Assembly: GCA_964620475.1 (NCBI GenBank)
Contig: CAZUJN010000001.1
Coordinates: 83,497 to 147,496 of the forward strand
Origin: an uncultured Candidatus Saccharibacteria bacterium
GTDB taxonomy: Bacteria > Patescibacteriota > Minisyncoccia > Phycocordibacterales > CAIZLB01
Direction of reading: 5' to 3'
DNA length: 64,000 bases
The notes beneath the pieces were generated by a model. That model had not been told where the DNA came from, made no database searches, and was given only the letters and a program-made list of their open reading frames with translations. The number at the start of each line of letters is the position of its first letter. Positions within the stretch are counted from its first letter, which is position 1. Both the position numbers and the translations under genes were made by a program. Below, piece after piece: positions 48,241 through 62,064 of the stretch.

Positions 48241-48271
48241 AAAAACAATCACCTGGCGGTGATTGTTTTTC
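48241..48271 (+). terminator. rho-independent terminator
   Basis: caatcacc-tggc-ggtgattg followed by ttttt. Confidence 0.55.
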
Positions 48272-48446
48272 CTAGCGGGCCATGTGAGTTAAGTACCCAC
48301 TGGTACAAGCAGTATAAGGCTTTTTGAGGGGTTTTAGAAGCACCTCCCTGAGGTAAGTGAGTTGGGTATCTAAATGCCAACAAATGCCAATTTTAGAGAG
48401 AATCGGGGTTATTAGAAAAAAGGATAAAAAATGGTAAAATGAGGCC

Positions 48447-49628
48447 ATGATTGAGGATTTAAACAAACACCTAACAGATCAAGAATTCTTCACCTATGCG
48501 AAGTTTTTTGACATGGTTATAAACAAAAAGAACCTCGCTGATGAAGACCAAAGAGAAATTGGTGTATATCAGTTTTCTATTGGCGAAGATGAGTCATATA
48601 GACGATTTCGTAGACTTTTCAATTTCATCAAATACCAAGACTTGCCAGTCAAAATCTCTGAATCAAGATACAACAAACTGGAAGAAATGATTGGTTCGTA
48701 CGCAAAAGGAAAAGACGCGAAAGGTGCAGGAATGCCGACAAAAGAAGATCTAGATACTATTTGCGAAAAGATAAATAACGGTAAGCCTATAAAATTTTCA
48801 GAGACAGGAATGCTGTCATGGGCATGGTTTGAGGTGTATGACTCCACTCATTTTTTGCCACATCAATACGAGATTTCTAATGAAGTAAAATCGAATGTTA
48901 AAAAAGAATTTGATACATATCTAGAGAATCTCATAAACGGCAAGCTCTCTATCGCTAAGGATAACTACTACAAGTTCAACATCCTAAAAGAAGCGTTCAT
49001 CCAAATGATTGAGCGAAAGGGTGTTTTGAAATTATTTGGCAAAAACTTTGTCATCAAAGAAGAATTAAACAATGAAGGAAACCTAAAGAGTGACCCTAAC
49101 TTTTGCATTGTGCAAACGGTATATGCCTTACAACACCTAGGATACCTGACGGTGAACAATATCTGGAGAGATGACGAGTACAAAGAACAATACAGTAGTT
49201 CGAGCAATATCCGATATTTCATATCAATCAATGTGACAATTGAGGATAGTTTCATTTCTGAAATAAACGACAGATACAAGAAAGCGAATCCAAAAAACGT
49301 GATCGAAGGATTCGACAAACCGAAAGGAATCTTAAAATTCGCAGGTGAGGAAATAATCCTTTCACTCAAAGGTAAAGAAACGGATGCATCCCTCCTTATG
49401 AATACCTTGTACAAAAAAGAAGATACGGAATGGATCTATAACGACGAGATTTTTGAGGATTGGAAGTTTAACCAAGCTGACATCCTGAAAAGTCCTAAAA
49501 ACAAGATATATTTCGCTGCCAAAAAGATAAATGAAAAGGTAGCGATGAAGACCAAAATCGAGGATTTTATTGAATTTACCACTGAAAAAGCAAGGATAAA
49601 TCCTCGCTACAACAAAGTTGACGAATAA
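48447..49628 (+). CDS. hypothetical protein (island cargo)
   Basis: 393 aa, GC about 40%, no motif recognised. Confidence 0.4.
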   Translation: MIEDLNKHLTDQEFFTYAKFFDMVINKKNLADEDQREIGVYQFSIGEDESYRRFRRLFNFIKYQDLPVKISESRYNKLEEMIGSYAKGKDAKGAGMPTKEDLDTICEKINNGKPIKFSETGMLSWAWFEVYDSTHFLPHQYEISNEVKSNVKKEFDTYLENLINGKLSIAKDNYYKFNILKEAFIQMIERKGVLKLFGKNFVIKEELNNEGNLKSDPNFCIVQTVYALQHLGYLTVNNIWRDDEYKEQYSSSSNIRYFISINVTIEDSFISEINDRYKKANPKNVIEGFDKPKGILKFAGEEIILSLKGKETDASLLMNTLYKKEDTEWIYNDEIFEDWKFNQADILKSPKNKIYFAAKKINEKVAMKTKIEDFIEFTTEKARINPRYNKVDE

Positions 49629-49719
49629 TATATAAATCGCAATAAATTTTTATAAATAGCCATCATATATCCTGAAGTCATCCTTCGGGATTTATTAATT
49701 AGCTAAATATAAAAGTTAT

Positions 49720-51015
49720 ATGCAAAAGCAAAAACTCATATGGTCAGTTACAACCCGCAAAGTGAGTGATCTGACAAAAAACGGATACAATCCGAGAAAG
49801 ATAAGCGAGAGCGAAAAGAGAGACTTGGAAAAGTCTATTAAGGAATTCGGGACGGTCGTTCCTGTAATCCTTAATATTGGTTTGAGAGCCAATGTCATTA
49901 TCGGCGGTGAGCAAAGAGTAAAGATATATGCTGATCTCGGTATGGAAGAGATCGAGTGTATGGTACCCTCTCGGGAACTGACACCTAAAGAAGAAAAAGA
50001 GCTTAACCTCCGTTTGAACAAAAACACAGGGTCATGGGATGAAAACCTTCTCAAGGAATTCGATATGGACATGCTCCTTGGTGTAGGTTTTGGCGATGAA
50101 GAATTGCAAAGCCTGTTTGATGATGTAGATATGGTCGAGGATGACTTTGATATTGAAAAAGCTGTCAAAGAAACCATAACTGCTAAAGTGAAGACTGGAG
50201 AAATCTGGGAACTCGGAAAGCATAGGTTGCTTGTTGGGGATTCTACTGATGTCACATCCGTACAAAAACTTATGGATGGAAAACTTGCAGACATCGTGTA
50301 CTGCGATCCGCCATACAACATTGGACTCGACTATTCAAAAGGTGTCGGCAACAAAGAAAAATATCAAGGGTCATATTCCGCAAAGGATGATTCGAAAAAG
50401 GATACTGACTATCTCGATTTCATAGATAAAAGTATTGATGTGGCAAAGACCGTAGCCAAGAAGGATTCCCACTTCTTCTACTGGTGCGACTCTTCGTATA
50501 TTTGGATCACACAGAATCTATACCAAAAGCACGGTATAGATAGTAAACGTGTCTGCATGTGGATCAAGAATAATCAGAATCCCACTCACAAGATTGCGTT
50601 CAATAAAGTATATGAACCATGCGTATACGGAACTATCGGCAAGCCATATCTCAATTCAGCAATGAACAATGTTAATGAGATTCTCAATCAGGAAGTGACC
50701 ACCGGCAATCAGGTACATGATGAGATTCTAGACATGATAGATATTTGGATTGAGAAAAGAGACAACGCTCAAACATATCAACATCCAACTCAAAAGCCTG
50801 TAACGCTCAATGAAAAACCACTCAAAAGATGCAGTGCTCCGCTTCATATTGTGTATAGCGGATTTGCGGGTAGCGGTAGTGATTTGATTGCTTGCGAAGA
50901 ATTAAATCGTGTTTGGTATGGAGTCGAAAAGGATTTGATTTTCGCAACCATCGTTATAGACCGATGGGAAAAGTTTACTGGCCTTAAAGCAAAGAAAATA
51001 TATGAAAATAACTAA
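49720..51015 (+). CDS. ParB/Srx-like nuclease domain fused to an N6-adenine/N4-cytosine DNA methyltransferase (DPPY class)
   Basis: 431 aa. N-terminal NPRKISE...IIGGEQRV (ParB-like). Methyltransferase motif IV VYCDPPYNIG and motif I GFAGSGSDLIACEELNR. Confidence 0.85.
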   Translation: MQKQKLIWSVTTRKVSDLTKNGYNPRKISESEKRDLEKSIKEFGTVVPVILNIGLRANVIIGGEQRVKIYADLGMEEIECMVPSRELTPKEEKELNLRLNKNTGSWDENLLKEFDMDMLLGVGFGDEELQSLFDDVDMVEDDFDIEKAVKETITAKVKTGEIWELGKHRLLVGDSTDVTSVQKLMDGKLADIVYCDPPYNIGLDYSKGVGNKEKYQGSYSAKDDSKKDTDYLDFIDKSIDVAKTVAKKDSHFFYWCDSSYIWITQNLYQKHGIDSKRVCMWIKNNQNPTHKIAFNKVYEPCVYGTIGKPYLNSAMNNVNEILNQEVTTGNQVHDEILDMIDIWIEKRDNAQTYQHPTQKPVTLNEKPLKRCSAPLHIVYSGFAGSGSDLIACEELNRVWYGVEKDLIFATIVIDRWEKFTGLKAKKIYENN

Positions 51016-51751
51016 AGGAGATATTTTCAAGATCGGCAATCATATTATCGGTTGTGGTGATTCTACCGACAGAGAATTTGTAGCTAAAGTAATCGGGAAG
51101 AACAAGATACGAGCCATCATTTCTGACCCACCTTATGGAGTTGCATATGTTGAAAACAAGAAAGGCTTTGCGAAACTTGGTGTTAAGGACGAGAAAATAA
51201 TTGTCGGCGATCATTTGCAGAGCGAATCTGAATATGAAGATTTCACCAGAAAGTATCTTGGTGCCGTTATTCCATATCTCGATGACTACAATGCATGCTA
51301 CATATTTAACGCCGATCCGATGTTTCCATCTCTCCGTAAAGGCATGAAAGATGCGGGTTTCTATTACAGCCAGATGATTATTTGGATTAAGAATCAACCT
51401 GTCATGAGTAGAAAAGACTACCTTTCGCAATATGAACTAATTGCATATGGATGGTTTGGCAAGCACAAAATGGAAAGATCTAAATCAAAGAATGTTATTT
51501 ATCACCCACGACCAAACAGATCAAGACTTCACCCTACACAAAAGCCGATAGGGCTACTTAGAAAGATAATTCCAGACGCAACATGCGTCGGTGACTTTAT
51601 CTATGATCCGTTTCTCGGAAGTGGATCAACTGCTATTGCATCGGAACATTTAGGTCGAAAATGTATCGGTATAGAAATAGATGAAGTGTATGTTTCCGTC
51701 GTTCTACAAAGACTTGAAAAGCTAACTGGTCAAAAACCAATAAAGATATAA
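51002..51751 (+). CDS. N6-adenine/N4-cytosine DNA methyltransferase (DPPY class)
   Basis: 249 aa. ISDPPYGVAY and DPFLGSGSTAIASEHLGRKCIGIEID. Confidence 0.85.
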   Translation: MKITKGDIFKIGNHIIGCGDSTDREFVAKVIGKNKIRAIISDPPYGVAYVENKKGFAKLGVKDEKIIVGDHLQSESEYEDFTRKYLGAVIPYLDDYNACYIFNADPMFPSLRKGMKDAGFYYSQMIIWIKNQPVMSRKDYLSQYELIAYGWFGKHKMERSKSKNVIYHPRPNRSRLHPTQKPIGLLRKIIPDATCVGDFIYDPFLGSGSTAIASEHLGRKCIGIEIDEVYVSVVLQRLEKLTGQKPIKI

Positions 51752-51755
51752 CAGT

Positions 51756-52130
51756 ATGAACGAGGAAGACTTCATAAAAGATCCATACAAAAAGCAAACA
51801 TACGATACGTATGCTCTTTGGAAGTCTCTGCCCTCATTTCTCAAGGGACAGCCGAGAGTTGCTCTCGAAAAGTTTGGTATTAATGAAGAAATTGTATTTG
51901 AGTTGCTATCCATAAAAAATCAAACTGAGTTCTCAAAAATATACAAAACAGATGTCGGCACATTGACCGACTGGAACAAGAGACTTGAGAAAGATGGATT
52001 GACTAAAGACATCAACAGCTGGGCAAGAAAGCTTACTCCTAACGTCATATTTGCCCTGTATAAAAATATCACAAAGCATGGTCGAGCTCATGAGGTGAGA
52101 GCATGGTATGAATTAATTGAAAACAACTAA
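51756..52130 (+). CDS. hypothetical small protein with a possible HTH
   Basis: 124 aa. TEFSKIYKTDVGTLTDWNKRL is HTH-like. Translationally coupled to the methyltransferase genes. Confidence 0.35.
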   Translation: MNEEDFIKDPYKKQTYDTYALWKSLPSFLKGQPRVALEKFGINEEIVFELLSIKNQTEFSKIYKTDVGTLTDWNKRLEKDGLTKDINSWARKLTPNVIFALYKNITKHGRAHEVRAWYELIENN

Positions 52131-52326
52131 TATGAAAAACATTGATCTAAAAGAAATAAATATCATTCTCTCTGACACATTGCAAAAAGTTGTGAATAGA
52201 GAGATCTCACATAAACAAGCGAACATGGTCGCTAAGCTTGCCTCTACACTTTCTAAAAACATTGTGAATACCGAACTCAAAGAGCGAGTTGAATTTTTGG
52301 AGCAAGCACTTAAAGGAAAGAAATAA
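52117..52326 (+). CDS. hypothetical small helical protein
   Basis: 69 aa. Overlaps its neighbours by 14 nt upstream and lies 3 nt from the next gene. Confidence 0.3.
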   Translation: MKTTNMKNIDLKEINIILSDTLQKVVNREISHKQANMVAKLASTLSKNIVNTELKERVEFLEQALKGKK

Positions 52327-52328
52327 TT

Positions 52329-53813
52329 ATGAAAAATCTAGCAAACCTATTAAGAAAAGCAGACATCACTCCAAGAGAAAGAATGATAACCTTGGTGCAA
52401 AATAGTGTTTATAAAGAAAAGGACGGCAAGAGTATTCTTTCCGAATCGGAGATATATTCTTTGACGGAGGGGTGGAAGCCGAAAACTTCTCAGGAAGTAA
52501 GGGAGTATAACAAGTACTTGGAACTGTCTAAACTAGAAGCTTCGATGAGATTAGATGCTCAAATGTTTGCGTGTAGATCCGAGAATCTGCTACTACGAAG
52601 TCATATACTGATTGAGGGAATAAAAAGTGATATAGGAAAAACTCATGATGCAATTTTAGATAAATATGTATCAAAAGAAGATGCCCTGAACTTTGTCATA
52701 CAAAATACTTATCTCGACTATTCAACGCTTGTTCACATACTCACTTTCAACAACCTACCGAAAGATATTCAGGATGATTTGATTATGTTAGATGAGTATG
52801 TAGCACATGATAAAAAGTATTTGGAAGATGAGGTCTTTCTTTATGAATTGTTCAAAGATTCAAGTACTCTAAATACAAAAGATAAAAATATCTTGATAGA
52901 CCGTATCTATTCGTGTATGTATCACGATGGTTTTAGAAAGATTAAAAATGGAACAGAAAAAGATGGTTTCTTGCCACTCCATTTCTTTGCTGAGTTACCA
53001 ATGGATGCTGTGCTGAAAAAATGGGCAGAATACAGCCAGACAGATATCGAGGGGAAAGATAATGGTTATATACTAGATAAATTTGAGGAGTACGCAAAAA
53101 GTAGAGGTAAAACCATGGAGATATTTGTAAAGGAAACACTATCGAAGTGGATAGATGAAGGTTTGTTTGTGTCGGAATATACCCCAGTATTTTTTAGTAA
53201 TAAACACAATACATGGAATGGTGATACTAAATTTATACACAAAGAGATTTTTACCAAATGGCACGAAGAATTACAGAAGACCAAAACATCGATAGACAAA
53301 ATGGGTGCTAATGGAGATTTGGTTGTGGAGCAATTTGATAAGGAAATTTTTGGAACCACAGAGAAGGTTCAGATAGTTACTGGGGAAAGTTTGTATAGAT
53401 GCAAATCTGATATTGACTTTGTGAATGAATACAAGGAGCAGGTGACTGTACTCCTACCTATCGCAGGGACGTGTTTGTTTATGAAGAAATATAATAAGCC
53501 GTTAGATAATCTTGAAACACTAAAATGTTTTTACGAATTATCTAAAACATTTTCGGATGTATTTGAAATTGATATGTCAGATAAATATGATGATTTTGTG
53601 AGTTCGTTTGAACAGGAGATCAAACTCATCAATCATTCAATATCCATTGCATTAGATAATGTGAGTGGTTTTATATATACAAAAATGAACAAAAAATACC
53701 CAATAGAGATCATCGAGAATAATTTTACTTTTGATATTGATACAGAATCAGAAAATAAAGCCGATGGTATTATTGAAAGTTATAAAGGAGCATTTCAGAA
53801 AATTGGGTTTTAA
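52329..53813 (+). CDS. hypothetical protein (494 aa), island cargo
   Basis: No Walker, nuclease or HTH motif recognised. Last gene of the plus-strand methyltransferase operon. Confidence 0.4.
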   Translation: MKNLANLLRKADITPRERMITLVQNSVYKEKDGKSILSESEIYSLTEGWKPKTSQEVREYNKYLELSKLEASMRLDAQMFACRSENLLLRSHILIEGIKSDIGKTHDAILDKYVSKEDALNFVIQNTYLDYSTLVHILTFNNLPKDIQDDLIMLDEYVAHDKKYLEDEVFLYELFKDSSTLNTKDKNILIDRIYSCMYHDGFRKIKNGTEKDGFLPLHFFAELPMDAVLKKWAEYSQTDIEGKDNGYILDKFEEYAKSRGKTMEIFVKETLSKWIDEGLFVSEYTPVFFSNKHNTWNGDTKFIHKEIFTKWHEELQKTKTSIDKMGANGDLVVEQFDKEIFGTTEKVQIVTGESLYRCKSDIDFVNEYKEQVTVLLPIAGTCLFMKKYNKPLDNLETLKCFYELSKTFSDVFEIDMSDKYDDFVSSFEQEIKLINHSISIALDNVSGFIYTKMNKKYPIEIIENNFTFDIDTESENKADGIIESYKGAFQKIGF

Positions 53814-53815
53814 GA

Positions 53816-54568
53816 TTATTTACCCTTCCAGTGCACCGCTCGATTTTCGATAAACATCATTATTTTGTTGAGAGCAAAACCAATCACACCAGTCATGAGG
53901 ATGGCGGCATACATATCTGCTGTTTGATAGACTAATTGTGCATCAATAATGCGTTTTCCAAGCCCAGCATTGGTCCCAATAAACATTTCAGTCACGATGA
54001 CAATTATAAGTGAGAGTGAAATTGCCACACGAAAACCTGAAAAGATTTGTGGTAATGCTTCTGGAAAAATCACTTTGCGAAAAAGTTCGAATCCTTTTAC
54101 TTTCATTGTTTTAGCGACACGCACTCGTAATTCCTTGCCGAGATGTACCCCATACATGGAGTTTATGAGAATGACCAATCCTGCACCCCAAGCAGTGACA
54201 GCAAATTTAGCCTCATCGCCGATTCCAAAGACAAGGAGAAACAGTGGGAAAAGCGCAGTCGTTGGAATACCTCGAAAAAACTCGACAGTAAATTCAAGAG
54301 CGTTATAGACTTTGCTTGAGTAACCCATCAGAAGACCAAGTGGGACTCCGATAATAGTTGCAAAAATAAAACCAACAAGAACACGATACAGGGTGTGTCC
54401 GATGTCGCTTAACATTGATCCATTCAGTAGTGAATCAATGAGGTGATTGGAAACATCATATGGAGATGCCAAGAATAAAGGACTGACAAGTTTGAAATAT
54501 GAAATGATCCACCAGAGGCAGAGTAAAATTGTCGGTATGAGTATGTAATATAATTTCTTATTTTTCAT
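53816..54568 (-). CDS. ABC transporter permease (NitT/TauT, SsuC/TauC/ThiX-like)
   Basis: Likely start MKNKKLYYILIP. Six TM helices and an EAA-like loop. Confidence 0.75.
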   Translation of the reverse strand: MKNKKLYYILIPTILLCLWWIISYFKLVSPLFLASPYDVSNHLIDSLLNGSMLSDIGHTLYRVLVGFIFATIIGVPLGLLMGYSSKVYNALEFTVEFFRGIPTTALFPLFLLVFGIGDEAKFAVTAWGAGLVILINSMYGVHLGKELRVRVAKTMKVKGFELFRKVIFPEALPQIFSGFRVAISLSLIIVIVTEMFIGTNAGLGKRIIDAQLVYQTADMYAAILMTGVIGFALNKIMMFIENRAVHWKGK

Positions 54569-55310
54569 ATTCGAAGGTATTAAGAATTGCGTTTCGAAGT
54601 TCAGTAAATTCAGGACTTGAAAGCATATCAAGTGTTCGAGGACGAGGGAGTTTTACTTCAAAAATCTTTTTAATTTTTGCTGGTCGTGGAGACAGAACAA
54701 TCACTCTATCAGCGAGAAATATAGCTTCGTCAATATCATGACTTACAAACAAAGTTGTTATTTTTTTCTCTTGCCAGATATCAAGAAGCTCCAACTCCAT
54801 TTTTCTAGTAGTTGAATAATCAAGAGCAGAAAATGGCTCATCCATGATCAGAATGTCAGGATCATAAGCAATTGAACGACATATAGAAACAAGTTGACGT
54901 TGTCCCCCAGAGAGTTCATAGACAAATTTATCCTTTGAATTAAGCAAACCCACTTTATTTAAAAGATGCTCGGCAATTTTGTATTGTTTTTCTTTATCTA
55001 CTTTTGCTATTTCAAGCGGAAATATAATATTTTCTAAAACGGTTCTCCAAGGAAAAAGACTTTCGTTGTAATTCTGAAAAACAAAACCTACTTGTGCATC
55101 CTTTGGGTTTTTACCGCTAACCATGACTTCACCTGATTCAGGAGTTTCAATACCAGCGACGATATTAAGTAGCGTTGTTTTACCTGATCCATTCGGACCA
55201 AAAACAGTTACAAATTCTCCTTTATTAACTTCAAGATTAATACCATCAATAACCCTGGTGTCGCCAGAATCTTTTTTAAAGGTTTTAGTTATTCCAACAA
55301 GTGAAATCAT
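54558..55310 (-). CDS. ABC transporter ATP-binding protein
   Basis: 250 aa. Walker A GPNGSGKTTLL, signature LSGGQRQ, Walker B ILIMDEPFSALD. Confidence 0.85.
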   Translation of the reverse strand: MISLVGITKTFKKDSGDTRVIDGINLEVNKGEFVTVFGPNGSGKTTLLNIVAGIETPESGEVMVSGKNPKDAQVGFVFQNYNESLFPWRTVLENIIFPLEIAKVDKEKQYKIAEHLLNKVGLLNSKDKFVYELSGGQRQLVSICRSIAYDPDILIMDEPFSALDYSTTRKMELELLDIWQEKKITTLFVSHDIDEAIFLADRVIVLSPRPAKIKKIFEVKLPRPRTLDMLSSPEFTELRNAILNTFEYEK

Positions 55311-55316
55311 TACCGT

Positions 55317-56273
55317 TTATTTGTAATATGCGTTAGTTAAATCTGGTTTTGATTTGAACTCTCCAGAAGCCACTAAAATATCAAGCAACTTATTGGTTAA
55401 AGTTTTATCAATCTGTTGTGAATTTCTAAAATATGTCATTCCGAGAACGTCGACAACTTTCTGGTCTAGCTTAAAGATTGTTTTTGTCATACCCCTAACA
55501 TCTTTGTCGTTGGTACGTAGATAATCAAAGGCCTTATCAAAAGCATTAACTACTTTTTTTGCTTCACGTGGATACTTATTTACAAACTGAGTGCTTACAA
55601 GTGCTACCCCCAATGGGCTGTGATCTAACTGTTCAGAATAAACAGAACCATAGACCTTCCTTATTCCACCGCTTGTAAGTGCGATAGATATTGTTGGTTC
55701 ATATGTGAATAAAGCATCAATCGATCCTGCGGTAAGTGCTGTGAGATGTTGTGGTGGTGGTAATTGCACAAACTGAATAGTAGAAGAATCAATGCCTTTA
55801 TCTTTTAGAAAAAGTTTAAACATATTTGAAGCACTTGTACCTGGGAATACTCCGATTTTTTTACCTTTCAAATCCTCAAGGGTCCTAATAGGAGAGCTTT
55901 CCTTTACCAAAAGAGAATCAAATGGAACGTCACTTGTAATGTCAGTTAAAGCGATAATTTTCATTTTTCCAGGATCAACCATTTCTGCGTTTAAATATGG
56001 AAGTATAGAAATTTCGGGAGTAACATCTATATCACCTCGTGCAAGTGCATCAACAATTTGATTTGAGGTTTGAAGTAGTGTGGTTTGAACAGTAATGCCC
56101 TGATCCTCAAAAAACTTTTTTTGCTGAGCAATCTCTAAAGGAAGTTGGCTTGCTGTAATCGGTAAATACCCGATTTTTACAACATAATCAGACGGTTTAT
56201 TAGATCTTAAAAAAAATACGCTGAGTATAACTAAAATTATAAGTGTTCCGATGATTAAAAATGGTTTTTTCAT
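55317..56273 (-). CDS. ABC substrate-binding protein (NMT1/THI5-like, SsuA/ThiY-like)
   Basis: Likely start MKKPFLIIGTLIIL (signal anchor), then a periplasmic-binding-protein type 2 fold. Confidence 0.65.
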   Translation of the reverse strand: MKKPFLIIGTLIILVILSVFFLRSNKPSDYVVKIGYLPITASQLPLEIAQQKKFFEDQGITVQTTLLQTSNQIVDALARGDIDVTPEISILPYLNAEMVDPGKMKIIALTDITSDVPFDSLLVKESSPIRTLEDLKGKKIGVFPGTSASNMFKLFLKDKGIDSSTIQFVQLPPPQHLTALTAGSIDALFTYEPTISIALTSGGIRKVYGSVYSEQLDHSPLGVALVSTQFVNKYPREAKKVVNAFDKAFDYLRTNDKDVRGMTKTIFKLDQKVVDVLGMTYFRNSQQIDKTLTNKLLDILVASGEFKSKPDLTNAYYK

Positions 56274-56422
56274 AGTAATAAAAATTAAGTTATTAATAAA
56301 ATTTCCTGTTTTAAAAGATGGTCTCATTGTACCATAAAAAATGACTTTTCCATAATTAAAATACGCCCAAAATAAATTTAAGCGTCATAACCCCTATTCA
56401 AATTACTAACTATTAAAAATAG

Positions 56423-57121
56423 TTACAAAACATTGTTCTCCTTACCCAAAACCACCCGATTAAGATACATGAAAGGAATGTTTATTAGTCCGACTAACCA
56501 TTTGACAGCAGTTTGTCCAATTATAAGGGGCATTATTGGTAAGGCTCCCAAGAAAGCTATTGGAATAAATATTAGACTATCCAGAAGTAGTGCTGGTATC
56601 GAACTGAAGACATTTCTTGCCCATAAATGTTTGCCTTTAGTAAATTTTTTGAACCAAGCATACACATATGCATCAAAATTCTCAGTTATAAGGAAGGCAA
56701 TCCAGCTAGCAATGGTAATCCTTGGTACTAGATTGAAAATTTGTTCCCATGATCCCTGCATTGTCCAAAATGGTGCCGCAGGCAATTTTACACCAAGCCA
56801 AAAGAAAAACACCATTGCGATTTGAGATACAAAAGCAATGAGAATCATTTTTGATACTTCCTTTCTACCAAATTTTTCATTTACAATATCTGTAAAAAGA
56901 TACGTGATAGAGAAAACAAGTACTCCACTCGGACCAAAGAATGTGCTGAATCCCAGATCGAAAGCAGAGATCTTGGCGGCTAAGACTTGGGCTACAAGAA
57001 CAAACGTGACGTATAATCCAATAAGTAAATCCGATCGGTTATATTTTCGAGCATACAAACTCCCGAGAAGTGTAAAACTAGTGATACCTACAATCCAGAT
57101 AATTAATAAGTATAAGCTCAT
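56423..57121 (-). CDS. yhhQ: YhhQ/COG1738 (VUT family) transporter, a queuosine-precursor (preQ0/preQ1) transporter family
   Basis: 232 aa, about six TM helices. YLFTDIVNEKFGRKEVSKMI matches the conserved YhhQ TDxxNExYG motif. Confidence 0.65.
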   Translation of the reverse strand: MSLYLLIIWIVGITSFTLLGSLYARKYNRSDLLIGLYVTFVLVAQVLAAKISAFDLGFSTFFGPSGVLVFSITYLFTDIVNEKFGRKEVSKMILIAFVSQIAMVFFFWLGVKLPAAPFWTMQGSWEQIFNLVPRITIASWIAFLITENFDAYVYAWFKKFTKGKHLWARNVFSSIPALLLDSLIFIPIAFLGALPIMPLIIGQTAVKWLVGLINIPFMYLNRVVLGKENNVL

Positions 57122-57128
57122 ATATTAT

Positions 57129-57848
57129 TTATAATAACTTAATTCTATAATTTATCCAAATAAAACCCCGCTCGTTTCTCTCTTGTTTTGTTTCTATCTT
57201 GTATCCGTACTCGGTCATCATTTTTTCTAGAACTTCAAAATCATATCGGGGTTGAGAAGTTCCTGCACTCTGTAAATTTGCATGGGGTAAGGTAATAATA
57301 CCGTCATTATGTAAAAAATCTTTTGCATCATTAAGAAATCTTTTATGTACAGTGAAATTGTTATCATAGAGCGCCCGATCAATTAAGTCGTTTCCACCAT
57401 CAAAATTGACAAAGGGTAAATTTGCGATAATCAGATGGTATTTTTTATCAGATGGAAATTTTGAAAAAAGATCAGAATAGAAGGTTGATATTTTATTTTG
57501 TAAACCGTTTAATGAAACATTGTGTTCAGTGCATTTAATTGCTTCCATGTTAATGTCGGCAGAGTCAACGTGCTTTGCGCCTGCAAGAGAAGCAACTATT
57601 GACTGTACACCTGTACCACAACCTATATCTGCAACTTCTAAATCACTTAAATTTCCAAATGCTTCAAAAACAGATTTTGAACTGGGGGTATAATCGGGTG
57701 GAAAGACGCTGGGAAAAACATCGATAGGAACAATCTTGTCTCCAATATTCAAGCTTATTCTGTAAATTCCATCCTTACTTTTATTTTTCAAAAAAGAAAG
57801 AAATTCTTGAGTATGTTTTGGATTGATTTTTTCTATGTGTGTAATCAT
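57129..57848 (-). CDS. SAM-dependent methyltransferase, small-domain (RsmC/RlmG/PrmC-like) type
   Basis: 239 aa. VADIGCGTGVQSIVASLAG (motif I), HLIIANLPFV (NPPY-like motif IV), preceded by VFPPDYTPSS. Confidence 0.55.
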   Translation of the reverse strand: MITHIEKINPKHTQEFLSFLKNKSKDGIYRISLNIGDKIVPIDVFPSVFPPDYTPSSKSVFEAFGNLSDLEVADIGCGTGVQSIVASLAGAKHVDSADINMEAIKCTEHNVSLNGLQNKISTFYSDLFSKFPSDKKYHLIIANLPFVNFDGGNDLIDRALYDNNFTVHKRFLNDAKDFLHNDGIITLPHANLQSAGTSQPRYDFEVLEKMMTEYGYKIETKQERNERGFIWINYRIKLL

Positions 57849-57853
57849 ATTTT

Positions 57854-58174
57854 TTAATCCTCAATCCAAACCTGTGCTGGACGATGTGCATCAGAATGTT
57901 TTATGTCAATAAATATTTTTAGATATTTAGGTTTAATAGATTCTTTTACTTGCAGATAAATTTGATGGGCCAACTCTTCAGCAGTAATTTTATTTTTAGC
58001 AATTTCATTTACAGCTCGCTCAGCATCGACATATTCAAGAACTTTCTTCTTGGGATAGTACTCAACGATAACATCACCAGAAAACTCTTTATCCGTAACC
58101 GAACAAATTGCCTTAAACGGTAAAAATATCTTTGTGCCACTGATCTTGAAATTTAATGAGATTGTTTTAATCAT
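57854..58174 (-). CDS. T-fold protein, QueF-like
   Basis: 106 aa. LPFKAICSVTDKEFSGDVIVEYYPKKKVLE aligns with QueF [30 protein letters not shown] (Cys conserved). The QueF E(S/L)K(S/A)hK(L/Y)(F/Y/W) motif is not preserved. C-terminal LKIFIDIKHSDAHRPAQVWIE is a T-fold-type strand. Confidence 0.4.
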   Translation of the reverse strand: MIKTISLNFKISGTKIFLPFKAICSVTDKEFSGDVIVEYYPKKKVLEYVDAERAVNEIAKNKITAEELAHQIYLQVKESIKPKYLKIFIDIKHSDAHRPAQVWIED

Positions 58175-58175
58175 T

Positions 58176-59081
58176 TTATTGTAAGTTATGTTTGATAATA
58201 AAAATTCTAAAATTTGCAGGGATACTCCTTACTTTTGTCATATTGAGTTCATGTTTTTGTGCAAATTCGGACATTTTTTTGTATATAAAATCTCTATCCT
58301 CAGAACTTAAACCTGCACTGAACACATTATACGTTCCTTCTTTTATTGAATAAAGAAGGTCATTGAGTTGATATTTTCTTTTCCATGATAGTGCTTTATT
58401 TGAAATAATCTTGAACAAAGTAAATTTTTTATCTGCACAGATATATTCCACAGCTTTTGTAGCATCGCCTGCGGGATACTTTCTTTGAACAAAAGGCTTT
58501 TTGAGATTAACTCTTAAAGAAAAATAATATTCAAAAAGAAGCTCTAGGTCCTTATCTATAATTGGGCTATTAAAAATTTGTTCAATCCTATCTTCTATCT
58601 GACTATTTTCATCGCCAGTAATAATATAACCACCAGGCTTAGATAAAGATTTTATCTTATTCAAAGCTTTTTCTGGAGAATTAAAACAATGAAGAATTGC
58701 TTTGAAGTGCACAATACTATACTGTCCTTTAAATTTAAGAACGTCTCCCAAAATTATTCGGGTTTTATCTTTAACATATTTAGACACAGCCTCATACATT
58801 TTTTCACTATAATCTATTCCATAAATCTCAGCCTTTGAATTTAAATTCAAAAGGGGTATTAAAAACAAGCCAGACCCAAAGCCAACATCTAGAATGTTGT
58901 CACCGTCTCGTGTTAAACCAATGGCTTGAGATGCATATTCTTTCTGTATAGATTTTGGGAATAATCGCAAAATCTCGTACTGTTGTTGGTTTATTTTTTT
59001 GTAGGTATCCCGCGTAGACATAAAAGTACTGTACCATAAAATTATCCTTTTGTGTAGCCATTTAAATATTTTTTCTATCAA
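58176..59081 (-). CDS. class I SAM-dependent methyltransferase
   Basis: 301 aa. ILDVGFGSGLF (motif I) and GGYIITGDE. Confidence 0.55.
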   Translation of the reverse strand: MIEKIFKWLHKRIILWYSTFMSTRDTYKKINQQQYEILRLFPKSIQKEYASQAIGLTRDGDNILDVGFGSGLFLIPLLNLNSKAEIYGIDYSEKMYEAVSKYVKDKTRIILGDVLKFKGQYSIVHFKAILHCFNSPEKALNKIKSLSKPGGYIITGDENSQIEDRIEQIFNSPIIDKDLELLFEYYFSLRVNLKKPFVQRKYPAGDATKAVEYICADKKFTLFKIISNKALSWKRKYQLNDLLYSIKEGTYNVFSAGLSSEDRDFIYKKMSEFAQKHELNMTKVRSIPANFRIFIIKHNLQ

Positions 59082-59147
59082 AAGTTACCAACTCCTGCCG
59101 TGTGAGACGCCTAGACTTCCTCAGGGGTTTGCGTCATCAATGTAGGT

Positions 59148-60473
59148 ATGAAAACAACAGCACCAACAGGCTATGAAATGGCCCAAACAACACAATTAGT
59201 AGCAAGTTTGAAATACTGCCTTTATGCACGTAAATCGACAGAAAGCGAGGAACGGCAAGTCCTCTCTATAGACAGTCAGATTAAGGAGATGTTACAACTG
59301 GCAGAACGAGAGAATCTGGATATCGTGACAATGAAGCGAGAAAGTCACTCGGCAAAAGAAACTGGACAAAGACCAGTATTCAACGAGATAATCGATGAAT
59401 TAAGAGCTGACAAATACAACGCAATCCTCACATGGGCACCCGACCGTATCTCAAGAAACGCAGGAGACTTAGGAAAAATCGTTGACTTGATGGATGCGGG
59501 TAAACTACACCAAATCAGGACATTCGGACAGACATTTTCAAACAATCCGAATGAAAAATTTCTTCTAATGATTCTTGGATCACAAGCAAAGCTTGAGAAC
59601 GACAACCGAGGGATTAATGTAAAACGAGGACTGCGAACAAGAGTAGAGATGGGATTGTGGCCAGGAGTTGCACCTCTTGGATATTTGAATCAAAGGGATA
59701 TCGACAAGAAGTGTCAGCTCATAGTCGATCAATTGAGAGCACCACTGGTAAAAAAAATATTTGAAAAAGTGGCATATGAAAAATTAAGCGGAAGAAAGAT
59801 ATATAATTGGCTTCGATTTGAAGCCAATTTCTATACCAGAGGAAACAAACCTCTGACACTCGCAGGAGTATATAGGATCATAGAAAGCCACTTCTACTAT
59901 GGGATGTTTGAATATCCAAAAGACAGCGGTAACTGGTATACAGGAAAACATGAACCATTGATTACCAAAGAATTATTTGATCAGGCTCAAGCCCAAATGA
60001 AGCGTGACAACATACAACGAGAGAATAAAGAATTTGCATTCACTAAATTATTTACATGCGGATACTGTAGTAGTGGAATATCAGCAGAAGAAAAATGGAA
60101 GCAACTCAAGGATGGAACGCATGCAAAATATGTATACTACTCATGTGCGAGATCGAGAGACAGGAACTGTAAGAACAAATATATACGAGAGGAGGATTTA
60201 ATTATCGAGATGTTAAAAATACTGGACAAGGTAAATATAAACGAGCTAGGCATGAGGCAAAAGCTTGAGGACGAGATAGCAAGATTCAACATATTCCAAA
60301 GGTCGGTGCTCGGAAGTACTGACAAGGTTGGCAACAGAAAAGATACTGATATACGAAACTATGCGAAGTATATTCTCAAAGAGGGAGCGGTTACTGAAAA
60401 GCGAGAATTGCTAGCGAACTTGAGATCGAGAATAGCATATAAAGACAAAGAGCTGACATTAATCGAAGAATAG
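59148..60473 (+). CDS. large serine recombinase (resolvase N-domain, recombinase domain and zinc ribbon)
   Basis: 441 aa. YARKSTESEERQVLSIDSQ (Ser nucleophile), GLWPGVAPLGY, CGYCSSG...C. Confidence 0.8.
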   Translation: MKTTAPTGYEMAQTTQLVASLKYCLYARKSTESEERQVLSIDSQIKEMLQLAERENLDIVTMKRESHSAKETGQRPVFNEIIDELRADKYNAILTWAPDRISRNAGDLGKIVDLMDAGKLHQIRTFGQTFSNNPNEKFLLMILGSQAKLENDNRGINVKRGLRTRVEMGLWPGVAPLGYLNQRDIDKKCQLIVDQLRAPLVKKIFEKVAYEKLSGRKIYNWLRFEANFYTRGNKPLTLAGVYRIIESHFYYGMFEYPKDSGNWYTGKHEPLITKELFDQAQAQMKRDNIQRENKEFAFTKLFTCGYCSSGISAEEKWKQLKDGTHAKYVYYSCARSRDRNCKNKYIREEDLIIEMLKILDKVNINELGMRQKLEDEIARFNIFQRSVLGSTDKVGNRKDTDIRNYAKYILKEGAVTEKRELLANLRSRIAYKDKELTLIEE

Positions 60474-60482
60474 ATTTTAATA

Positions 60483-61871
60483 CTACTTGTACTGTGCGTG
60501 AATGTTTTTAACATAATCATCCGCAATTTGTAGTATTTCACTGAAAGTAAGTATTTCGATGTTTTGTAGAGAATTGCGAAGTTTTGTGAAGTCTCTTTTG
60601 AGACTTTTTTCTTTTATCTTATTTAGCTTACTTTTTGTCAGTTTGTGATCTGAGGAGATTATAATAATTCCCCTTGGGTGGTAAAGGTTTTCTTCTTCAG
60701 TCATATTGGTAATCTTATTTTCATCAGAATTATTTTGAAATCGTTTTTGAACGATAGCGTCCATGTAATTCATGGTCTGAATTACAGCCCTGCTTAATTC
60801 AGAAGAAAAACTAAAATTCTTATGAGAGGAATCCCAAGTCACAGCATTTTTTAAATGTGTCTTAATCTCAATAATATCGAGACCGTTGTAGTGATTAATT
60901 CCAATAAAATCTGGGTATTTTTTGTCGCCATCAATGTCTTTGAATTCAATTTTTGGATATATTCTTTTATACGAGAAAACAAGATAAAGAAGATATTTTT
61001 CAAAATACTTTTGCCAGAGATTTTCCAGCTGTTTTATTTCAGAGTTGTTATCTGTAATTTTTGAGATTATTTTCTTCGCTTTCTCTGTCTCCATATCAGT
61101 AGTTCCCAGAGTTAGAATTTCTCTACCTAAAGCAATAATATCTTTAAGTTTTTCCTTGATAAAATACTCATCTAATGCTCTTAAAAAATCAGGGGAAAAT
61201 ACTTCGTCTTTAATTAGCTTATCCGTAAAATACTCAAGATTTTTTATATCTTCTATATCTAGAAAGTTATCATAATCTTTCTTTTTGTTCTTATTTTTAA
61301 GATTAAATCGTTCAACCATGAAGGAGAAATCTCCTTTGCCAATAGTTGTAACTTCTTTGGGTGCTTTACTGGTATATTTTAGCTTAAGCTTGTTTATCAA
61401 AAAAGTTTCAATACGATCCCTACTAGATTTACCTTTCTTAAAAACATCGTATGAATCACTTAAAATATCAATCAAAATTGGTTCAGGTATTTGAAGCATC
61501 TTTTCATTGGTTTTTCGTAGAATCTTTTTGCCAGTATTTAAAACTTTAATCTTTGAAAATGTGTCATCAATACCTAGAATAAGTTTTATGTATTGAAACC
61601 ACGGGATATTATAATCACTACCATATCTGGTTCTTAATACATTATCTATGTTTACCTTATCTGAAATAATCAATGACTGTCTATTGTTTGTTTTTTCATA
61701 ACTGTTTTGTTGGCGATTGTAATAATGAAAATCAATAAGCACATCTTTCTTATTAAAAATAACCACATCACCAGAAGGGCATAAAATTTTATTGTCTTCA
61801 AAAATCATCCCAGGCCAATTTAGAGATTGAAAAAATTCGACTATTTTCTCCTTTTGTGTTTTTTCTTCCAT
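60483..61871 (-). CDS. Shedu/DUF4263-like PD-(D/E)xK nuclease-fold protein (candidate antiphage defence)
   Basis: 462 aa. C-terminal YPDFIGINHYNGLDIIEIKTHLKN is a PD...(D/E)xK motif. Located between the recombinase and tRNA-Ser. Confidence 0.4.
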   Translation of the reverse strand: MEEKTQKEKIVEFFQSLNWPGMIFEDNKILCPSGDVVIFNKKDVLIDFHYYNRQQNSYEKTNNRQSLIISDKVNIDNVLRTRYGSDYNIPWFQYIKLILGIDDTFSKIKVLNTGKKILRKTNEKMLQIPEPILIDILSDSYDVFKKGKSSRDRIETFLINKLKLKYTSKAPKEVTTIGKGDFSFMVERFNLKNKNKKKDYDNFLDIEDIKNLEYFTDKLIKDEVFSPDFLRALDEYFIKEKLKDIIALGREILTLGTTDMETEKAKKIISKITDNNSEIKQLENLWQKYFEKYLLYLVFSYKRIYPKIEFKDIDGDKKYPDFIGINHYNGLDIIEIKTHLKNAVTWDSSHKNFSFSSELSRAVIQTMNYMDAIVQKRFQNNSDENKITNMTEEENLYHPRGIIIISSDHKLTKSKLNKIKEKSLKRDFTKLRNSLQNIEILTFSEILQIADDYVKNIHAQYK

Positions 61872-61882
61872 TACTGCATTTT

Positions 61883-61914
61883 ACCAAAAAACAGCAGATT
61901 AATCTGCTGTTTTA
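61883..61914 (-). terminator. terminator hairpin downstream of tRNA-Ser
   Basis: aacagcagatt/aatctgctgtt palindrome with T6 on the minus strand. Confidence 0.45.
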
Positions 61915-61974
61915 GGGCAATCGGGTCGCACTACTTGCTCAGGCAAGTGGGTTGACGCCGATAAAAAATTGTGT

Positions 61975-62064
61975 TGGCGGAGGAGGTGAGATTCGAACTC
62001 ACGGGACCCGTAAAGGCCCTCCTGTTTTCAAGACAGGTGCAATCGACCTCTCTGCCACTCCTCC
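61975..62064 (-). tRNA. tRNA-Ser (anticodon TGA) with encoded CCA
   Basis: 90 nt. Acceptor ggaggag/ctcctcc, anticodon arm cctgt-cTTGAaa-acagg, long variable arm, T arm gtgag-ttcgaat-ctcac. Confidence 0.85.

What the first reader, a model, noticed from the sequence alone, without database searches (positions are those of the whole stretch)
49720..53813. Compact plus-strand operon of two DNA methyltransferases and three unknown ORFs: candidate novel defence or anti-defence module
The five genes are co-directional and overlap or abut, with spacings of -14, +4, -14 and +2 nt. They are the ParB-nuclease-domain methyltransferase, a second DPPY methyltransferase, a 124-aa HTH-like protein, a 69-aa helical protein and a 494-aa protein with no recognisable motif. 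No cognate restriction endonuclease is recognisable. The ParB-methyltransferase architecture is typical of mobile-element orphan methylases. The three downstream unknowns, tightly coupled to the methylases inside an island that also carries a Shedu-like gene, could be the effector part of an uncharacterised modification-dependent system.
Basis: inference. Interest (0 to 1): 0.58.

Follow-up and report, generated by a model that had tools for sequence, protein, structure and literature searches.

The report
Phage-derived island core operon in Patescibacteria
The five genes are real and always travel together, but they are the backbone of a 13.7-kb mobile island that a serine recombinase inserts next to a serine tRNA gene in tiny "candidate phyla" bacteria; it is not a defence system, and it looks like a phage packaging module whose motor gene was replaced by two unknown proteins, possibly the first phage satellite in this group.

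Summary
Observation confirmed: five co-directional, abutting ORFs (ParB-MTase, MTase, 124 aa, 64-69 aa, 494 aa).

Interpretation only partly supported. The linkage is strongly conserved: 37 of 38 species-level genomes, all Patescibacteria. But the operon is the backbone of a mobile island, not a defence cassette.
- The island spans window 48275-61976. Its left end is sharp and starts with GCGG in 10 loci. Its right end is a conserved hairpin abutting the 3' end of tRNA-Ser.
- A large serine recombinase lies downstream (59148-60473).
- Metagenome contigs hold the predicted right-end/GCGG/left-end (attP-like) junction.

The 124-aa protein is homologous to proteins that sit directly upstream of TerL and portal in four uncultured phages, so it is small-terminase-like. 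It lacks their C-terminal tail. Streptococcus phage Javan244 has the same layout: ParB-MTase, MTase, TerS, TerL, portal.

In the island, a 64-aa protein and the 494-aa protein stand where TerL would be. The 494-aa protein:
- has a confident all-helical model (pLDDT 91) with no PDB or viral fold match;
- has no NTPase or nuclease motif;
- diverges far faster than its neighbours (median identity 43% against 74-84%).

Best reading: a phage-derived, probably helper-dependent (satellite-like) island carrying orphan self-protecting methylases. The function of the 64-aa/494-aa pair is unknown.

The parts
48275..48446 (+). Left end of the island (attL side). It starts GCGGGCCATGTGAGTTAAGTACCC, and the first ~116 nt are conserved non-coding sequence.
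   Evidence: Homology with L001, L009, L010 and L011 starts exactly here, with unrelated sequence to the left. Divergent islands also begin with GCGG. The same motif lies next to a related recombinase in IMG/VR contig L047.
48447..49628 (+). 'up' slot: a 393-aa protein of unknown function. This position holds different genes in different islands. A terminator-like hairpin follows at 49669-49691.
   Evidence: The protein is present at 63-92% identity only in the closest islands and is replaced by unrelated genes elsewhere. No family hit. Hairpin.
49720..51015 (+). pm: ParB_N-domain plus N6/N4 DNA methyltransferase (DPPY)
   Evidence: Pfam and PHROG hits. 202 phage records carry homologues. In phage Javan244 the homologue precedes a second MTase, TerS, TerL and portal.
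51002..51751 (+). m2: second N6/N4 DNA methyltransferase (DPPY)
   Evidence: N6_N4_Mtase E 2.6e-30, phrog_498 E 4e-60
51756..52130 (+). g3: 124-aa HTH protein. It is a homologue of the phage small terminase (TerS) but lacks the phage C-terminal tail.
   Evidence: 36-54% identical to proteins directly upstream of, or overlapping, TerL in L049, L051, L053 and L056. It is the most conserved gene of the operon (median 84%).
52132..52326 (+). g4: 64-aa helical protein. The ORF caller's TTG at 52117 is probably not the start.
   Evidence: Homologues start at this ATG. g4 is homologous to the C-terminal domain of a Zn-ribbon protein that precedes divergent g5 genes (hhalign 96%, E 2e-9).
52329..53813 (+). 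g5: 494-aa all-helical protein with no known family or fold. It evolves fast, and its N-terminal ~60 aa are the best conserved part.
   Evidence: AF2 pLDDT 91, pTM 0.80. No PDB or BFVD match. About 239 clusters at 50% identity. Median identity 43% against 74-84% for its neighbours. It is not TerL.
53816..59081 (-). Variable cargo: ABC transporter (permease, ATPase, NMT1-type binding protein), Vut_1 transporter and two SAM methyltransferases
   Evidence: Pfam. This segment is replaced by other genes in L001, L003, L009 and L038.
59081..60473 (+). Large serine recombinase (441 aa, CDS 59148-60473) with its conserved ~70-nt upstream region
   Evidence: Resolvase, Recombinase and Zn_ribbon_recom domains. 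A homologue lies downstream on the same strand in 20 of 27 informative loci. Its identity tracks that of the operon.
60483..61871 (-). Shedu (SduA_C) cargo gene inserted between the recombinase and the right end
   Evidence: Pfam E 2.3e-18. It is absent from L001 and L009, where the right-end hairpin follows the recombinase directly.
61923..61976 (+). Right end of the island: a conserved ~50-nt hairpin, then TTG. GCGG at 61977-61980 is shared with the left end.
   Evidence: Conserved in W, L001, L009, L027, L003 and L038 directly against the tRNA 3' end. It is fused to the left end through GCGG in L064 and L081.
61975..62064 (-). tRNA-Ser(tga), the integration target
   Evidence: ARAGORN. A tRNA-Ser (tga, gct or gga) or tRNA-Leu occupies the same position in L001, L003, L027, L038, L045 and L080.

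Best explanation
The five genes are the conserved backbone operon of a family of small (about 7-14 kb) integrative islands of Paceibacteria-type Patescibacteria. In this window the island spans 48275-61976.

Shown:
- The island has sharp, conserved ends.
- It lies against the 3' end of a tRNA-Ser gene.
- It carries a large serine recombinase.
- Its two ends are found joined through a shared GCGG in other contigs.

Inferred: the recombinase inserts a circular form of the island at the tRNA 3' end.

The operon derives from the head of a phage late operon (ParB-methylase, second methylase, small terminase, large terminase, portal). The two methylases are orphan enzymes that most likely pre-methylate the element's DNA, so that it survives restriction in a new host (inferred). 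Gene 3 is a small-terminase homologue that keeps the HTH and core but lacks the C-terminal tail of its phage relatives.

Genes 4 and 5 stand where the large terminase would be. They form a conserved pair. Gene 5 is a non-enzymatic-looking helical protein whose alleles are exchanged between islands and which diverges much faster than anything around it.

Most likely mechanism (inference): the island has no capsid, portal or motor of its own and is a helper-dependent, satellite-like element. Gene 3 would mark island DNA for packaging, or would interfere with the helper's small terminase. Genes 4 and 5 would contact a variable helper component. The constant N-terminus of gene 5 would face the island's own proteins, and its variable body would face the helper.
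For: Conserved unit:
- 37 of 38 GTDB loci carry all five genes in order.
- The four look-ups that started from typical gene-5 homologues at 32-68% identity show the same.
- All genes are under purifying selection, dN/dS 0.02-0.28.

Island ends:
- Homology with four loci begins at exactly 48275.
- Left ends of five more divergent islands also start with GCGG after unrelated flanks.
- Right ends abut GCGGAG of tRNA-Ser.
- L003 and L038 share a 98%-identical right block but sit at different tRNA-Ser genes, gga and gct.
- An attP-like junction (right end, GCGG, left end) is present in L064 and L081.

Recombinase: it has the three LSR domains. It lies downstream in 20 of 27 informative loci, 119-8014 nt after gene 5.

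Phage origin:
- Gene-3 homologues sit immediately upstream of TerL (phrog_2, E 1e-29, 4e-18, 8e-33) and portal (E 2e-101; Pfam Phage_portal) in L049, L051, L053 and L056.
- L047 carries the same left-end motif, a 52%-identical recombinase, a ParB-MTase (39% identity) and an MTase (45% identity), followed by TerS and TerL.
- Phage Javan244 has MTase, MTase, TerS, TerL, portal.

Gene 5:
- pLDDT 91, with no fold match.
- No Walker A motif by my reading of the translation; no residue invariant across the 43 aligned homologues is Asp, Glu or Lys.
- Median identity 43%.
- W against L009: neighbours are 94-98% identical but gene 5 is 39% (38% by tblastn), with the DNA breakpoint about 190 nt into the gene.

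Composition: island GC is 35.4% against 31.3% for the rest of the window.
Against: - No helper phage has been identified, and no evidence of packaging or induction exists.
- No replication gene and no regulator typical of known satellites is recognisable.
- The TerS assignment rests on homology to uncharacterised phage proteins in the TerS position. PHROG, Pfam and NCBIfam give no TerS hit for gene 3. Its AF2 model is mediocre (pLDDT 68) and has no significant fold match.
- One island (L080) with the same ends, a 96%-identical recombinase and the same tRNA-Ser/RuvX flank lacks the operon entirely. The operon is therefore not required for the island to persist.
- The attP-like junctions lie in chromosomal contigs next to a truncated recombinase. 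They show tandem copies, not a free circle.
- An exact attP pattern found nothing in a first metagenome scan.
- The shared core is only 4 nt.
Confidence: 0.5

Rival explanations
1. A non-satellite integrative element. The island moves by some other route, for example release on lysis followed by natural transformation, to which Patescibacteria are thought to be prone. Gene 3 would be a DNA-binding regulator or recombination directionality factor. Genes 4-5 would serve replication or maintenance of the excised circle.
For: - Divergent gene-4/gene-5 pairs sit in tyrosine-integrase elements beside excisionase-like proteins and a 486-aa protein that looks Rep-like by eye.
- No capsid-interaction or replication gene is otherwise recognisable in the island.
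- Allele exchange of gene 5 resembles incompatibility-driven diversification of initiators.
Against: - No iterons or tandem repeats lie in or near gene 5.
- Gene 5 has no NTPase, primase or winged-helix Rep signature.
- Gene 3's relatives are in the TerS position of phages, not next to integrases.
- The MTase-MTase-TerS layout is specifically a phage packaging-module head.
Confidence: 0.25
2. One reading: a novel modification-linked defence or anti-defence system. The two methylases mark self DNA, and genes 3-5 are the effectors.
For: - Tight operon with conserved linkage to the two methylases in 37 of 38 loci.
- Gene 5 evolves fast, as immune sensors do.
- A Shedu gene is carried in the same island.
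Against: - Gene-3 homologues occur in phages next to TerL, with no methylase within 10 kb.
- Gene-4/5 pairs occur without methylases.
- No PADLOC model other than MTase models matches.
- No nuclease, ATPase or other effector domain or fold was found.
- The operon is the element's backbone between its att ends, whereas the cargo, Shedu included, varies.
Confidence: 0.1
3. A type IIS-like restriction-modification system: two methylases (one per strand), gene 3 as the controller (C) protein and gene 5 as an unrecognisably divergent endonuclease.
For: - Two adjacent N6/N4 methylases and a small HTH protein.
- REases are notoriously divergent in sequence.
Against: - The confident model of gene 5 is almost entirely helical and matches no nuclease fold.
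- The residues invariant across the 43 aligned homologues are mostly aromatic or hydrophobic, and none is Asp, Glu or Lys.
- Gene 3 is homologous to TerS-position phage proteins.
- Gene 5 alleles swap while the methylases stay the same (W against L009). That would uncouple restriction from modification.
Confidence: 0.05
4. A decaying prophage remnant with no current function.
For: - No structural genes are present.
- Truncated recombinases and deletion derivatives exist at some sites (L064, L075).
Against: - ORFs are intact in 37 of 38 species-level genomes, in constant order.
- dN/dS is 0.02-0.28 in all genes.
- The ends are precise, the same element occurs at different tRNA-Ser genes, and attP-like junctions exist.
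Confidence: 0.05

Closest known systems
Phage-inducible chromosomal islands (PICIs / SaPIs)
   Same: - Small integrative island with precise att sites.
- Encodes an integrase and a homologue of the helper-type small terminase, but no capsid, portal or large terminase.
- Carries variable accessory and defence cargo.
   Different: - A large serine recombinase instead of a tyrosine integrase.
- No recognisable primase-replicase, master repressor or AlpA.
- The TerS homologue lacks the C-terminal tail.
- Two methylases head the operon.
- An unknown 64-aa/494-aa pair is present.
- The host is a Patescibacterium.
- Helper dependence is untested.
Phage late-operon head 'ParB-methylase, second methylase, TerS, TerL, portal' (for example Streptococcus phage Javan244)
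   Same: Same order and orientation of a ParB-domain N6/N4 methylase (31% identity over 99% of the protein), a second methylase and then a small-terminase-position gene.
   Different: In the island, TerL and portal are absent. Genes 4 and 5, which are unrelated to TerL (hhalign probability 0.3%), follow instead.
L047 / IMG/VR UViG_3300014208_000734 element (uncharacterised)
   Same: Same left-end motif, a related serine recombinase (52% identity) and related ParB-MTase and MTase (39% and 45% identity).
   Different: - It carries HNH, canonical TerS and TerL after the methylases.
- The recombinase lies at the other end and in the opposite orientation.
- It carries a type I restriction R subunit as cargo.
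Large-serine-recombinase integrating elements (phiC31/Bxb1-type prophages, SCCmec Ccr, XisF elements)
   Same: Resolvase, Recombinase and Zn-ribbon architecture. The best NCBIfam similarity is to CcrB and XisF, below their cut-offs. Integration needs only a very short shared core.
   Different: - The target is the extreme 3' end of tRNA-Ser or tRNA-Leu genes.
- No recombination directionality factor has been identified.
Minimal or marine satellites and tRNA-targeting cargo islands (PICMI, Tycheposons, VEIMEs), as listed in PMC11389934
   Same: Small size, insertion beside tRNA genes, variable cargo, and presumed dependence on a helper's particles.
   Different: No shared marker genes were found. 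PICMI mobilisation is reported to rely on a DNA motif only (PMC11389934), whereas this island encodes a TerS homologue and two further conserved proteins.

Membership tests
Orphan (solitary) type II DNA methyltransferases of mobile elements | SAM-dependent N6/N4 methyltransferase domain with the DPPY catalytic motif | tested here: met
   PF01555 E 7e-22 and 2.6e-30. DPPY is present in both proteins.
Orphan (solitary) type II DNA methyltransferases of mobile elements | No cognate restriction endonuclease in the neighbourhood | tested here: met
   PADLOC, Pfam and NCBIfam find no REase among the neighbours. The gene-5 model is helical with no nuclease fold match.
Orphan (solitary) type II DNA methyltransferases of mobile elements | Demonstrated methylation of a defined DNA motif | not testable with these tools
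   Needs SMRT or ONT methylome data.
Small terminase subunit (TerS), for gene 3 | Encoded immediately upstream of, and usually overlapping, the large terminase gene in phages | tested here: met
   This holds for its homologues in L049, L051, L053 and L056. In the island itself no TerL follows.
Small terminase subunit (TerS), for gene 3 | N-terminal HTH DNA-binding domain, helical oligomerisation core and C-terminal TerL-binding tail | tested here: inconclusive
   There is a weak HTH_28 hit (E 0.004) and the model is helical. The 30-50-aa C-terminal extension of the phage homologues is missing. There is no significant fold or family match to solved TerS.
Large terminase subunit (TerL), for gene 5 | P-loop ATPase domain plus RNase-H-like nuclease domain | tested here: not met
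   No Walker A motif, by my own reading of the translation. No Pfam or PHROG TerL hit. hhalign against the L047 TerL gives probability 0.3%. The model is all-helical.
Large-serine-recombinase integrative element | Recombinase with Resolvase, Recombinase and zinc-ribbon domains | tested here: met
   (E 1e-19, 1e-13, 1e-6)
Large-serine-recombinase integrative element | Defined attL and attR junctions, the same element at different target copies, and an attP form | tested here: met
   Junctions in 10 loci. L003 and L038 sit at different tRNA-Ser genes. An attP-like junction is present in L064 and L081. No empty attB site was recovered.
PICI-type phage satellite | Integrase plus packaging-redirection gene (TerS or equivalent) in a <=15-kb island that lacks virion genes | tested here: met
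   13.7 kb, with a serine recombinase and a TerS homologue. No capsid, portal or TerL hits among the island ORFs that were scanned.
PICI-type phage satellite | Primase/replicase and a helper-sensing master repressor | tested here: not met
   None is recognisable. The 'up' slot protein and genes 4-5 have no family.
PICI-type phage satellite | Induction by, and packaging into particles of, a helper phage | not testable with these tools
   No helper has been identified. Needs virome read mapping or experiments.
Known anti-phage defence systems (PADLOC-DB) | Match of the non-methylase genes to any defence-system model | tested here: not met
   Zero PADLOC families for genes 3, 4, 5 and 'up'.

The most novel reading that the evidence does not exclude
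These islands would be the first phage satellites of the Candidate Phyla Radiation. They would use a previously unseen hijacking module: a tail-less small-terminase homologue (gene 3) working with a new-fold, allele-swapping adaptor pair (genes 4-5). That pair would couple island DNA to, or block, the large terminase or portal of whichever helper phage is circulating. The same recombinase and att 'chassis' would carry alternative modules, such as full HNH-TerS-TerL in L047 or a helicase in L080.
Probability: 0.3. Interest if true: 0.75.

Novelty: new variant of a known kind. Interest (0 to 1): 0.6.

Why it matters
Mobile elements of Patescibacteria are almost uncharted. My two literature searches on this point found no described satellite or serine-recombinase island in the group.

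This family offers several things:
- a well-delimited element with a testable attP/attB pair: a large serine recombinase that targets the 3' end of tRNA-Ser, which may be useful as a genetic tool for organisms that currently have none;
- an unannotated small-terminase family that would improve annotation of CPR phages;
- a widespread protein (about 239 clusters at 50% identity) with a confidently predicted fold and no known relative, whose rapid allele turnover points to a molecular arms race.

It also shows that 'methylase plus unknown genes' operons in islands can be packaging-module relics rather than defence systems.

Tried and rejected
- **Gene 5 as terminase, portal or nuclease.** Rejected. 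No family was found. A PDB profile search returned only noise. Foldseek against PDB and BFVD gave no hit with E <= 0.001 and TM < 0.2. hhalign against TerL gave 0.3%.
- **Gene 5 as an iteron-binding replication initiator.** No iterons or tandem repeats.
- **Structured RNA at the left end.** No Rfam match.
- **Long direct repeats flanking the island.** None. Only a 4-nt GCGG is shared.
- **attP junction by an exact two-part pattern in metagenomes.** No hit. A second scan with the left-end motif alone then recovered attP-like junctions.
- **Gene-5 relatives in IMG/VR by pattern scan.** None.
- **Gene 3 and gene 5 in GenBank phages.** None.
- **Gene 3 fold search.** Mediocre model (pLDDT 68) with only insignificant MarR-like HTH matches.
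- **Gene 3 against the canonical L047 TerS by hhalign.** No detectable homology.

Full report
**1. The observation**

The five + strand ORFs exist as described: 49720-51015 (431 aa), 51002-51751 (249 aa), 51756-52130 (124 aa), 52117-52326 (69 aa) and 52329-53813 (494 aa), with spacings of -14, +4, -14 and +2. The first has ParB_N plus N6_N4_Mtase. The second has N6_N4_Mtase. Both carry DPPY.

The third has only a weak HTH_28 hit. The fourth and fifth match nothing in Pfam, PHROGs, PADLOC or NCBIfam. No restriction enzyme is recognisable.

One correction concerns gene 4. In every homologue it starts at the ATG that corresponds to 52132, giving 64 aa. The second overlap is therefore probably a +1 spacing.

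**2. Conservation**

The 494-aa protein (g5) has about 130 homologous clusters in the 5.8-billion-protein collection. The few that carry names come from Patescibacteria/Minisyncoccia, and none has a Pfam domain. An exhaustive profile search found 239 representatives at 50% identity, all of similar length and with no informative fusions.

Contigs that encode typical homologues at 68%, 39%, 34% and 32% identity all carry the same five genes in the same order.

A scan of one genome per GTDB species with the 124-aa protein (g3) gave 38 loci, all from Paceibacterota, Nomurabacteria, Vogelbacteria or Parcubacteria-type MAGs. Of these, 37 carry all five genes in order. The 38th contig ends 228 nt after gene 4. 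All genes are under purifying selection, with dN/dS of 0.02-0.28. This is a functional, conserved unit, not a chance arrangement and not a decaying remnant.

**3. The operon sits in a mobile island with defined ends**

*Recombinase.* A large serine recombinase with Resolvase, Recombinase and Zn-ribbon domains lies at 59148-60473. A homologue lies downstream on the same strand in 20 of 27 informative GTDB loci, 119-8014 nt after g5. It follows g5 directly in L027 and L045.

*Left end.* DNA alignment of the window with L001, L009, L010 and L011 starts in every case at exactly 48275 (GCGGGCCATGTGAGTTAAGTACCC…). The sequence to the left is unrelated. Five more divergent islands also begin with GCGG after unrelated flanks.

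*Right end.* A conserved ~50-nt hairpin (61923-61976) abuts the GCGGAG of the 3' end of tRNA-Ser(tga) at 61975-62064. The same structure stands against tRNA-Ser (gct, gga, tga) in L001, L003, L027, L038 and L080; a tRNA-Leu(gag) lies ~110 nt after the recombinase in L045, but the hairpin is not recognisable there.

*Same element, different targets.* L003 and L038 share a 98%-identical right block that ends at the tRNA. The tRNA genes differ (gga and gct), so the same element has inserted at two targets.

*attP-like junction.* A metagenome scan for the left-end motif recovered contigs (L064, L081, probably L079) in which the right-end hairpin is fused to the left end through a single shared GCGG. 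This is exactly the attP-like junction predicted from the two ends. In L064 it lies next to a truncated recombinase, which indicates tandem copies.

*Extent in this window.* The island spans 48275-61976 (13,702 bp). Its GC content is 35.4% against 31.3% for the rest of the window.

*Variable content.* The segment between g5 and the recombinase is variable cargo. Here it holds an ABC transporter, a Vut_1 transporter and two SAM methyltransferases. The Shedu gene is a further insertion between the recombinase and the right end, and it is absent from L001 and L009.

**4. What the genes are**

*g3.* This is the best conserved gene (median pairwise identity 84%). Six IMG/VR contigs encode relatives. 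One (L048) carries the whole cassette. In three distinct phage contexts (L049; L051 with L050, its near-duplicate; L053), and in a fourth phage contig (L056), the homologue has no methylase or g4/g5 nearby. This was checked by tblastn for L049-L053 and from the precomputed Pfam list for L056. In the sixth contig (L052) the locus ends at the homologue, so its downstream context is unknown.

In these phages the homologue is 36-54% identical. It lies directly upstream of, and mostly overlaps, a large terminase gene (phrog_2, E 1e-29, 4e-18, 8e-33; Terminase_6N). A portal gene follows (phrog_2662, E 2e-101; Phage_portal).

g3 is therefore a member of an unannotated small-terminase family. The phage versions share residues 11-122 with g3 and add a 30-50-aa C-terminal extension that the island protein lacks.

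Independent support for a phage origin of the layout comes from two elements:
- L047 has the same left-end motif, a 52%-identical recombinase, a ParB-MTase (39%) and an MTase (45%), followed by canonical TerS and TerL.
- Streptococcus phage Javan244 has a homologue of the ParB-MTase (31% identity over 99% of the protein), then a second methylase, TerS, TerL and portal.

*g4.* This protein is homologous to the C-terminal domain of a 131-134-aa zinc-ribbon protein that immediately precedes the most divergent g5 homologues (hhalign 96%, E 2e-9). Those pairs sit in other small integrative elements. These carry a tyrosine integrase, MerR/excisionase-like proteins and a 486-aa protein that looks Rep-like by eye, and no methylases. 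So g4-g5 is a conserved pair linked to mobile elements, not to methylation.

*g5.* The protein gives a confident, almost entirely helical model (pLDDT 91, pTM 0.80). It has no significant match in the PDB or among predicted viral structures. No Walker A motif is seen by my own reading of the translation. The residues invariant across the 43 aligned homologues are mostly aromatic or hydrophobic, and none is Asp, Glu or Lys. It is not TerL.

g5 diverges far faster than its neighbours. The median pairwise identity is 43%, against 74-84% for the other genes. Between the window and L009 the neighbours are 94-98% identical but g5 is 39% by global alignment (38% by tblastn). The DNA homology breaks about 190 nt into the gene. 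Its dS often exceeds that of its neighbours, which indicates allele exchange rather than only relaxed constraint. The N-terminal 40-60 residues are the most conserved part.

**5. Mechanism**

*Shown:*
- a conserved five-gene unit;
- island boundaries at a tRNA-Ser 3' end;
- a linked serine recombinase;
- an attP-like junction;
- homology of g3 to TerS-position phage proteins;
- methylase domains without a nuclease;
- rapid turnover of g5.

*Inferred:*
- The recombinase integrates a circular form of the island at GCGG.
- The methylases protect the island's own DNA on entry into new hosts.
- The island lacks capsid, portal and motor genes, so it depends on a helper phage.
- g3 directs or perturbs packaging.
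- g4-g5 contact a variable helper component.

I put the backbone-of-a-mobile-island reading at about 0.9. I put the satellite-like mechanism at about 0.5. A specific adaptor role for g4-g5 is well below that.

**6. Caveats**

- No helper phage and no packaging evidence are available.
- No replication or master-regulator gene is recognisable.
- g3 has no direct TerS family or fold hit.
- L080 has the same ends, a 96%-identical recombinase and the same tRNA-Ser/RuvX flank, but a helicase-like gene in place of the operon. The recombinase/att chassis can therefore exist without the operon.
- The shared core is only 4 nt, and no empty attB site was recovered.

**7. Comparison and novelty**

The island works most like a PICI-type satellite: an integrase and a TerS homologue without virion genes. 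It fails the membership tests for a primase-replicase and a master repressor. It also uses a serine recombinase, so it should not be filed as a PICI.

The methylases are ordinary orphan phage-type enzymes. The g4-g5 pair, and the tail-less TerS in this combination, have no described counterpart. Literature searches found no satellites or serine-recombinase islands described in Patescibacteria. The known satellite families are those listed in PMC11389934.

Verdict: a new variant of a known kind. The defence-system interpretation is not supported.

Noticed in passing
window 49720-51015 (residues ~200-280 of the ParB-MTase); loci L014/L015, L025/L026/L046: The ParB-methylase occurs in two allele classes. 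Pairwise identity is either 73-75% or 88-98%, while the adjacent methylase stays at 85-98%. The variable stretch lies between the DPPY motif and the C-terminal SAM-binding motif, where a target-recognition domain is expected. This suggests swapped methylation specificities.
   Followed up: partly
window 48447-49628: The first gene after the left end ('up', 393 aa, no family) is a variable slot. It has its own promoter-like site and is followed by a terminator-like hairpin (49669-49691). It is replaced by unrelated genes of 225-630 aa in other islands. L064 and L075 share a different 383-aa family at this position.
   Followed up: partly
L080 (metagenome contig Ga0194051_1002190): This island has the same left end, a 96%-identical recombinase, the same right-end hairpin and the same tRNA-Ser(tga)/RuvX flank as the window. 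Its interior is a 797-aa DEAD/ResIII-like helicase plus a 182-aa protein, with no five-gene operon.
   Followed up: partly
L047 / L062 (IMGVR_UViG_3300014208_000734 = Ga0172379_10003659): A related element has the same left-end motif next to a 52%-identical serine recombinase. It carries HNH, ParB-MTase, MTase, canonical TerS and TerL, then a convergent type I restriction R subunit. No portal follows TerL in the part that was read.
   Followed up: partly
L064 5706-5879, L081 ~240-420, L079 1-90: These contigs hold attP-like junctions (right-end hairpin, GCGG, left end). In L064 the upstream copy keeps only the C-terminal 160 aa of the recombinase. L079 has a ~790-nt mini-remnant between a left end and a tRNA-Ser. 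Island remnants seem to accumulate at these tRNA sites.
   Followed up: partly
L054 3585-7107, L055 2130-5413, L008 724-3277: The most divergent g5 homologues (546-623 aa) are preceded by a g4-like protein with an N-terminal CxxxxxxxC…CxxH zinc ribbon. They are followed by a 486-aa protein with a Rep-like stretch, judged by eye only. These elements carry a tyrosine integrase and MerR/HTH_17 excisionase-like genes.
   Followed up: partly
window 48284-48296, 48354-48366 and 61947-61959; L003 6296-6310, ~6385-6400 and ~18950-18965: A short motif recurs twice near the left end and once in the right-end hairpin: A(A/T)GTGAGT(T/C) in the window's type. It co-varies as TGTAGGT in the L003 type. These may be protein-binding sites for the recombinase or for g3.
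   Followed up: no
window 53816-59081: The cargo between g5 and the recombinase consists of uptake genes plus two SAM methyltransferases. The uptake genes are an NMT1/THI5-type ABC transporter and a Vut_1 (YhhQ-like) transporter. These would be nutrient-salvage functions carried on a mobile island in a reduced-genome bacterium.
   Followed up: no
window 47271-48107: A TrmB-family HTH regulator lies just outside the island's left end. It gives weak matches to CRISPR-associated Csa3/CasR regulator models (PADLOC E 2e-5 to 5e-4). A perfect 13-bp-stem terminator follows at 48241-48270, immediately before the island.
   Followed up: no
L048 (IMGVR_UViG_3300000970_000154): This contig carries the full cassette, with g5 only 26% identical. 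It has two serine recombinase genes, one about 4 kb upstream and one about 7 kb downstream of the cassette. This may be a tandem or composite island.
   Followed up: no
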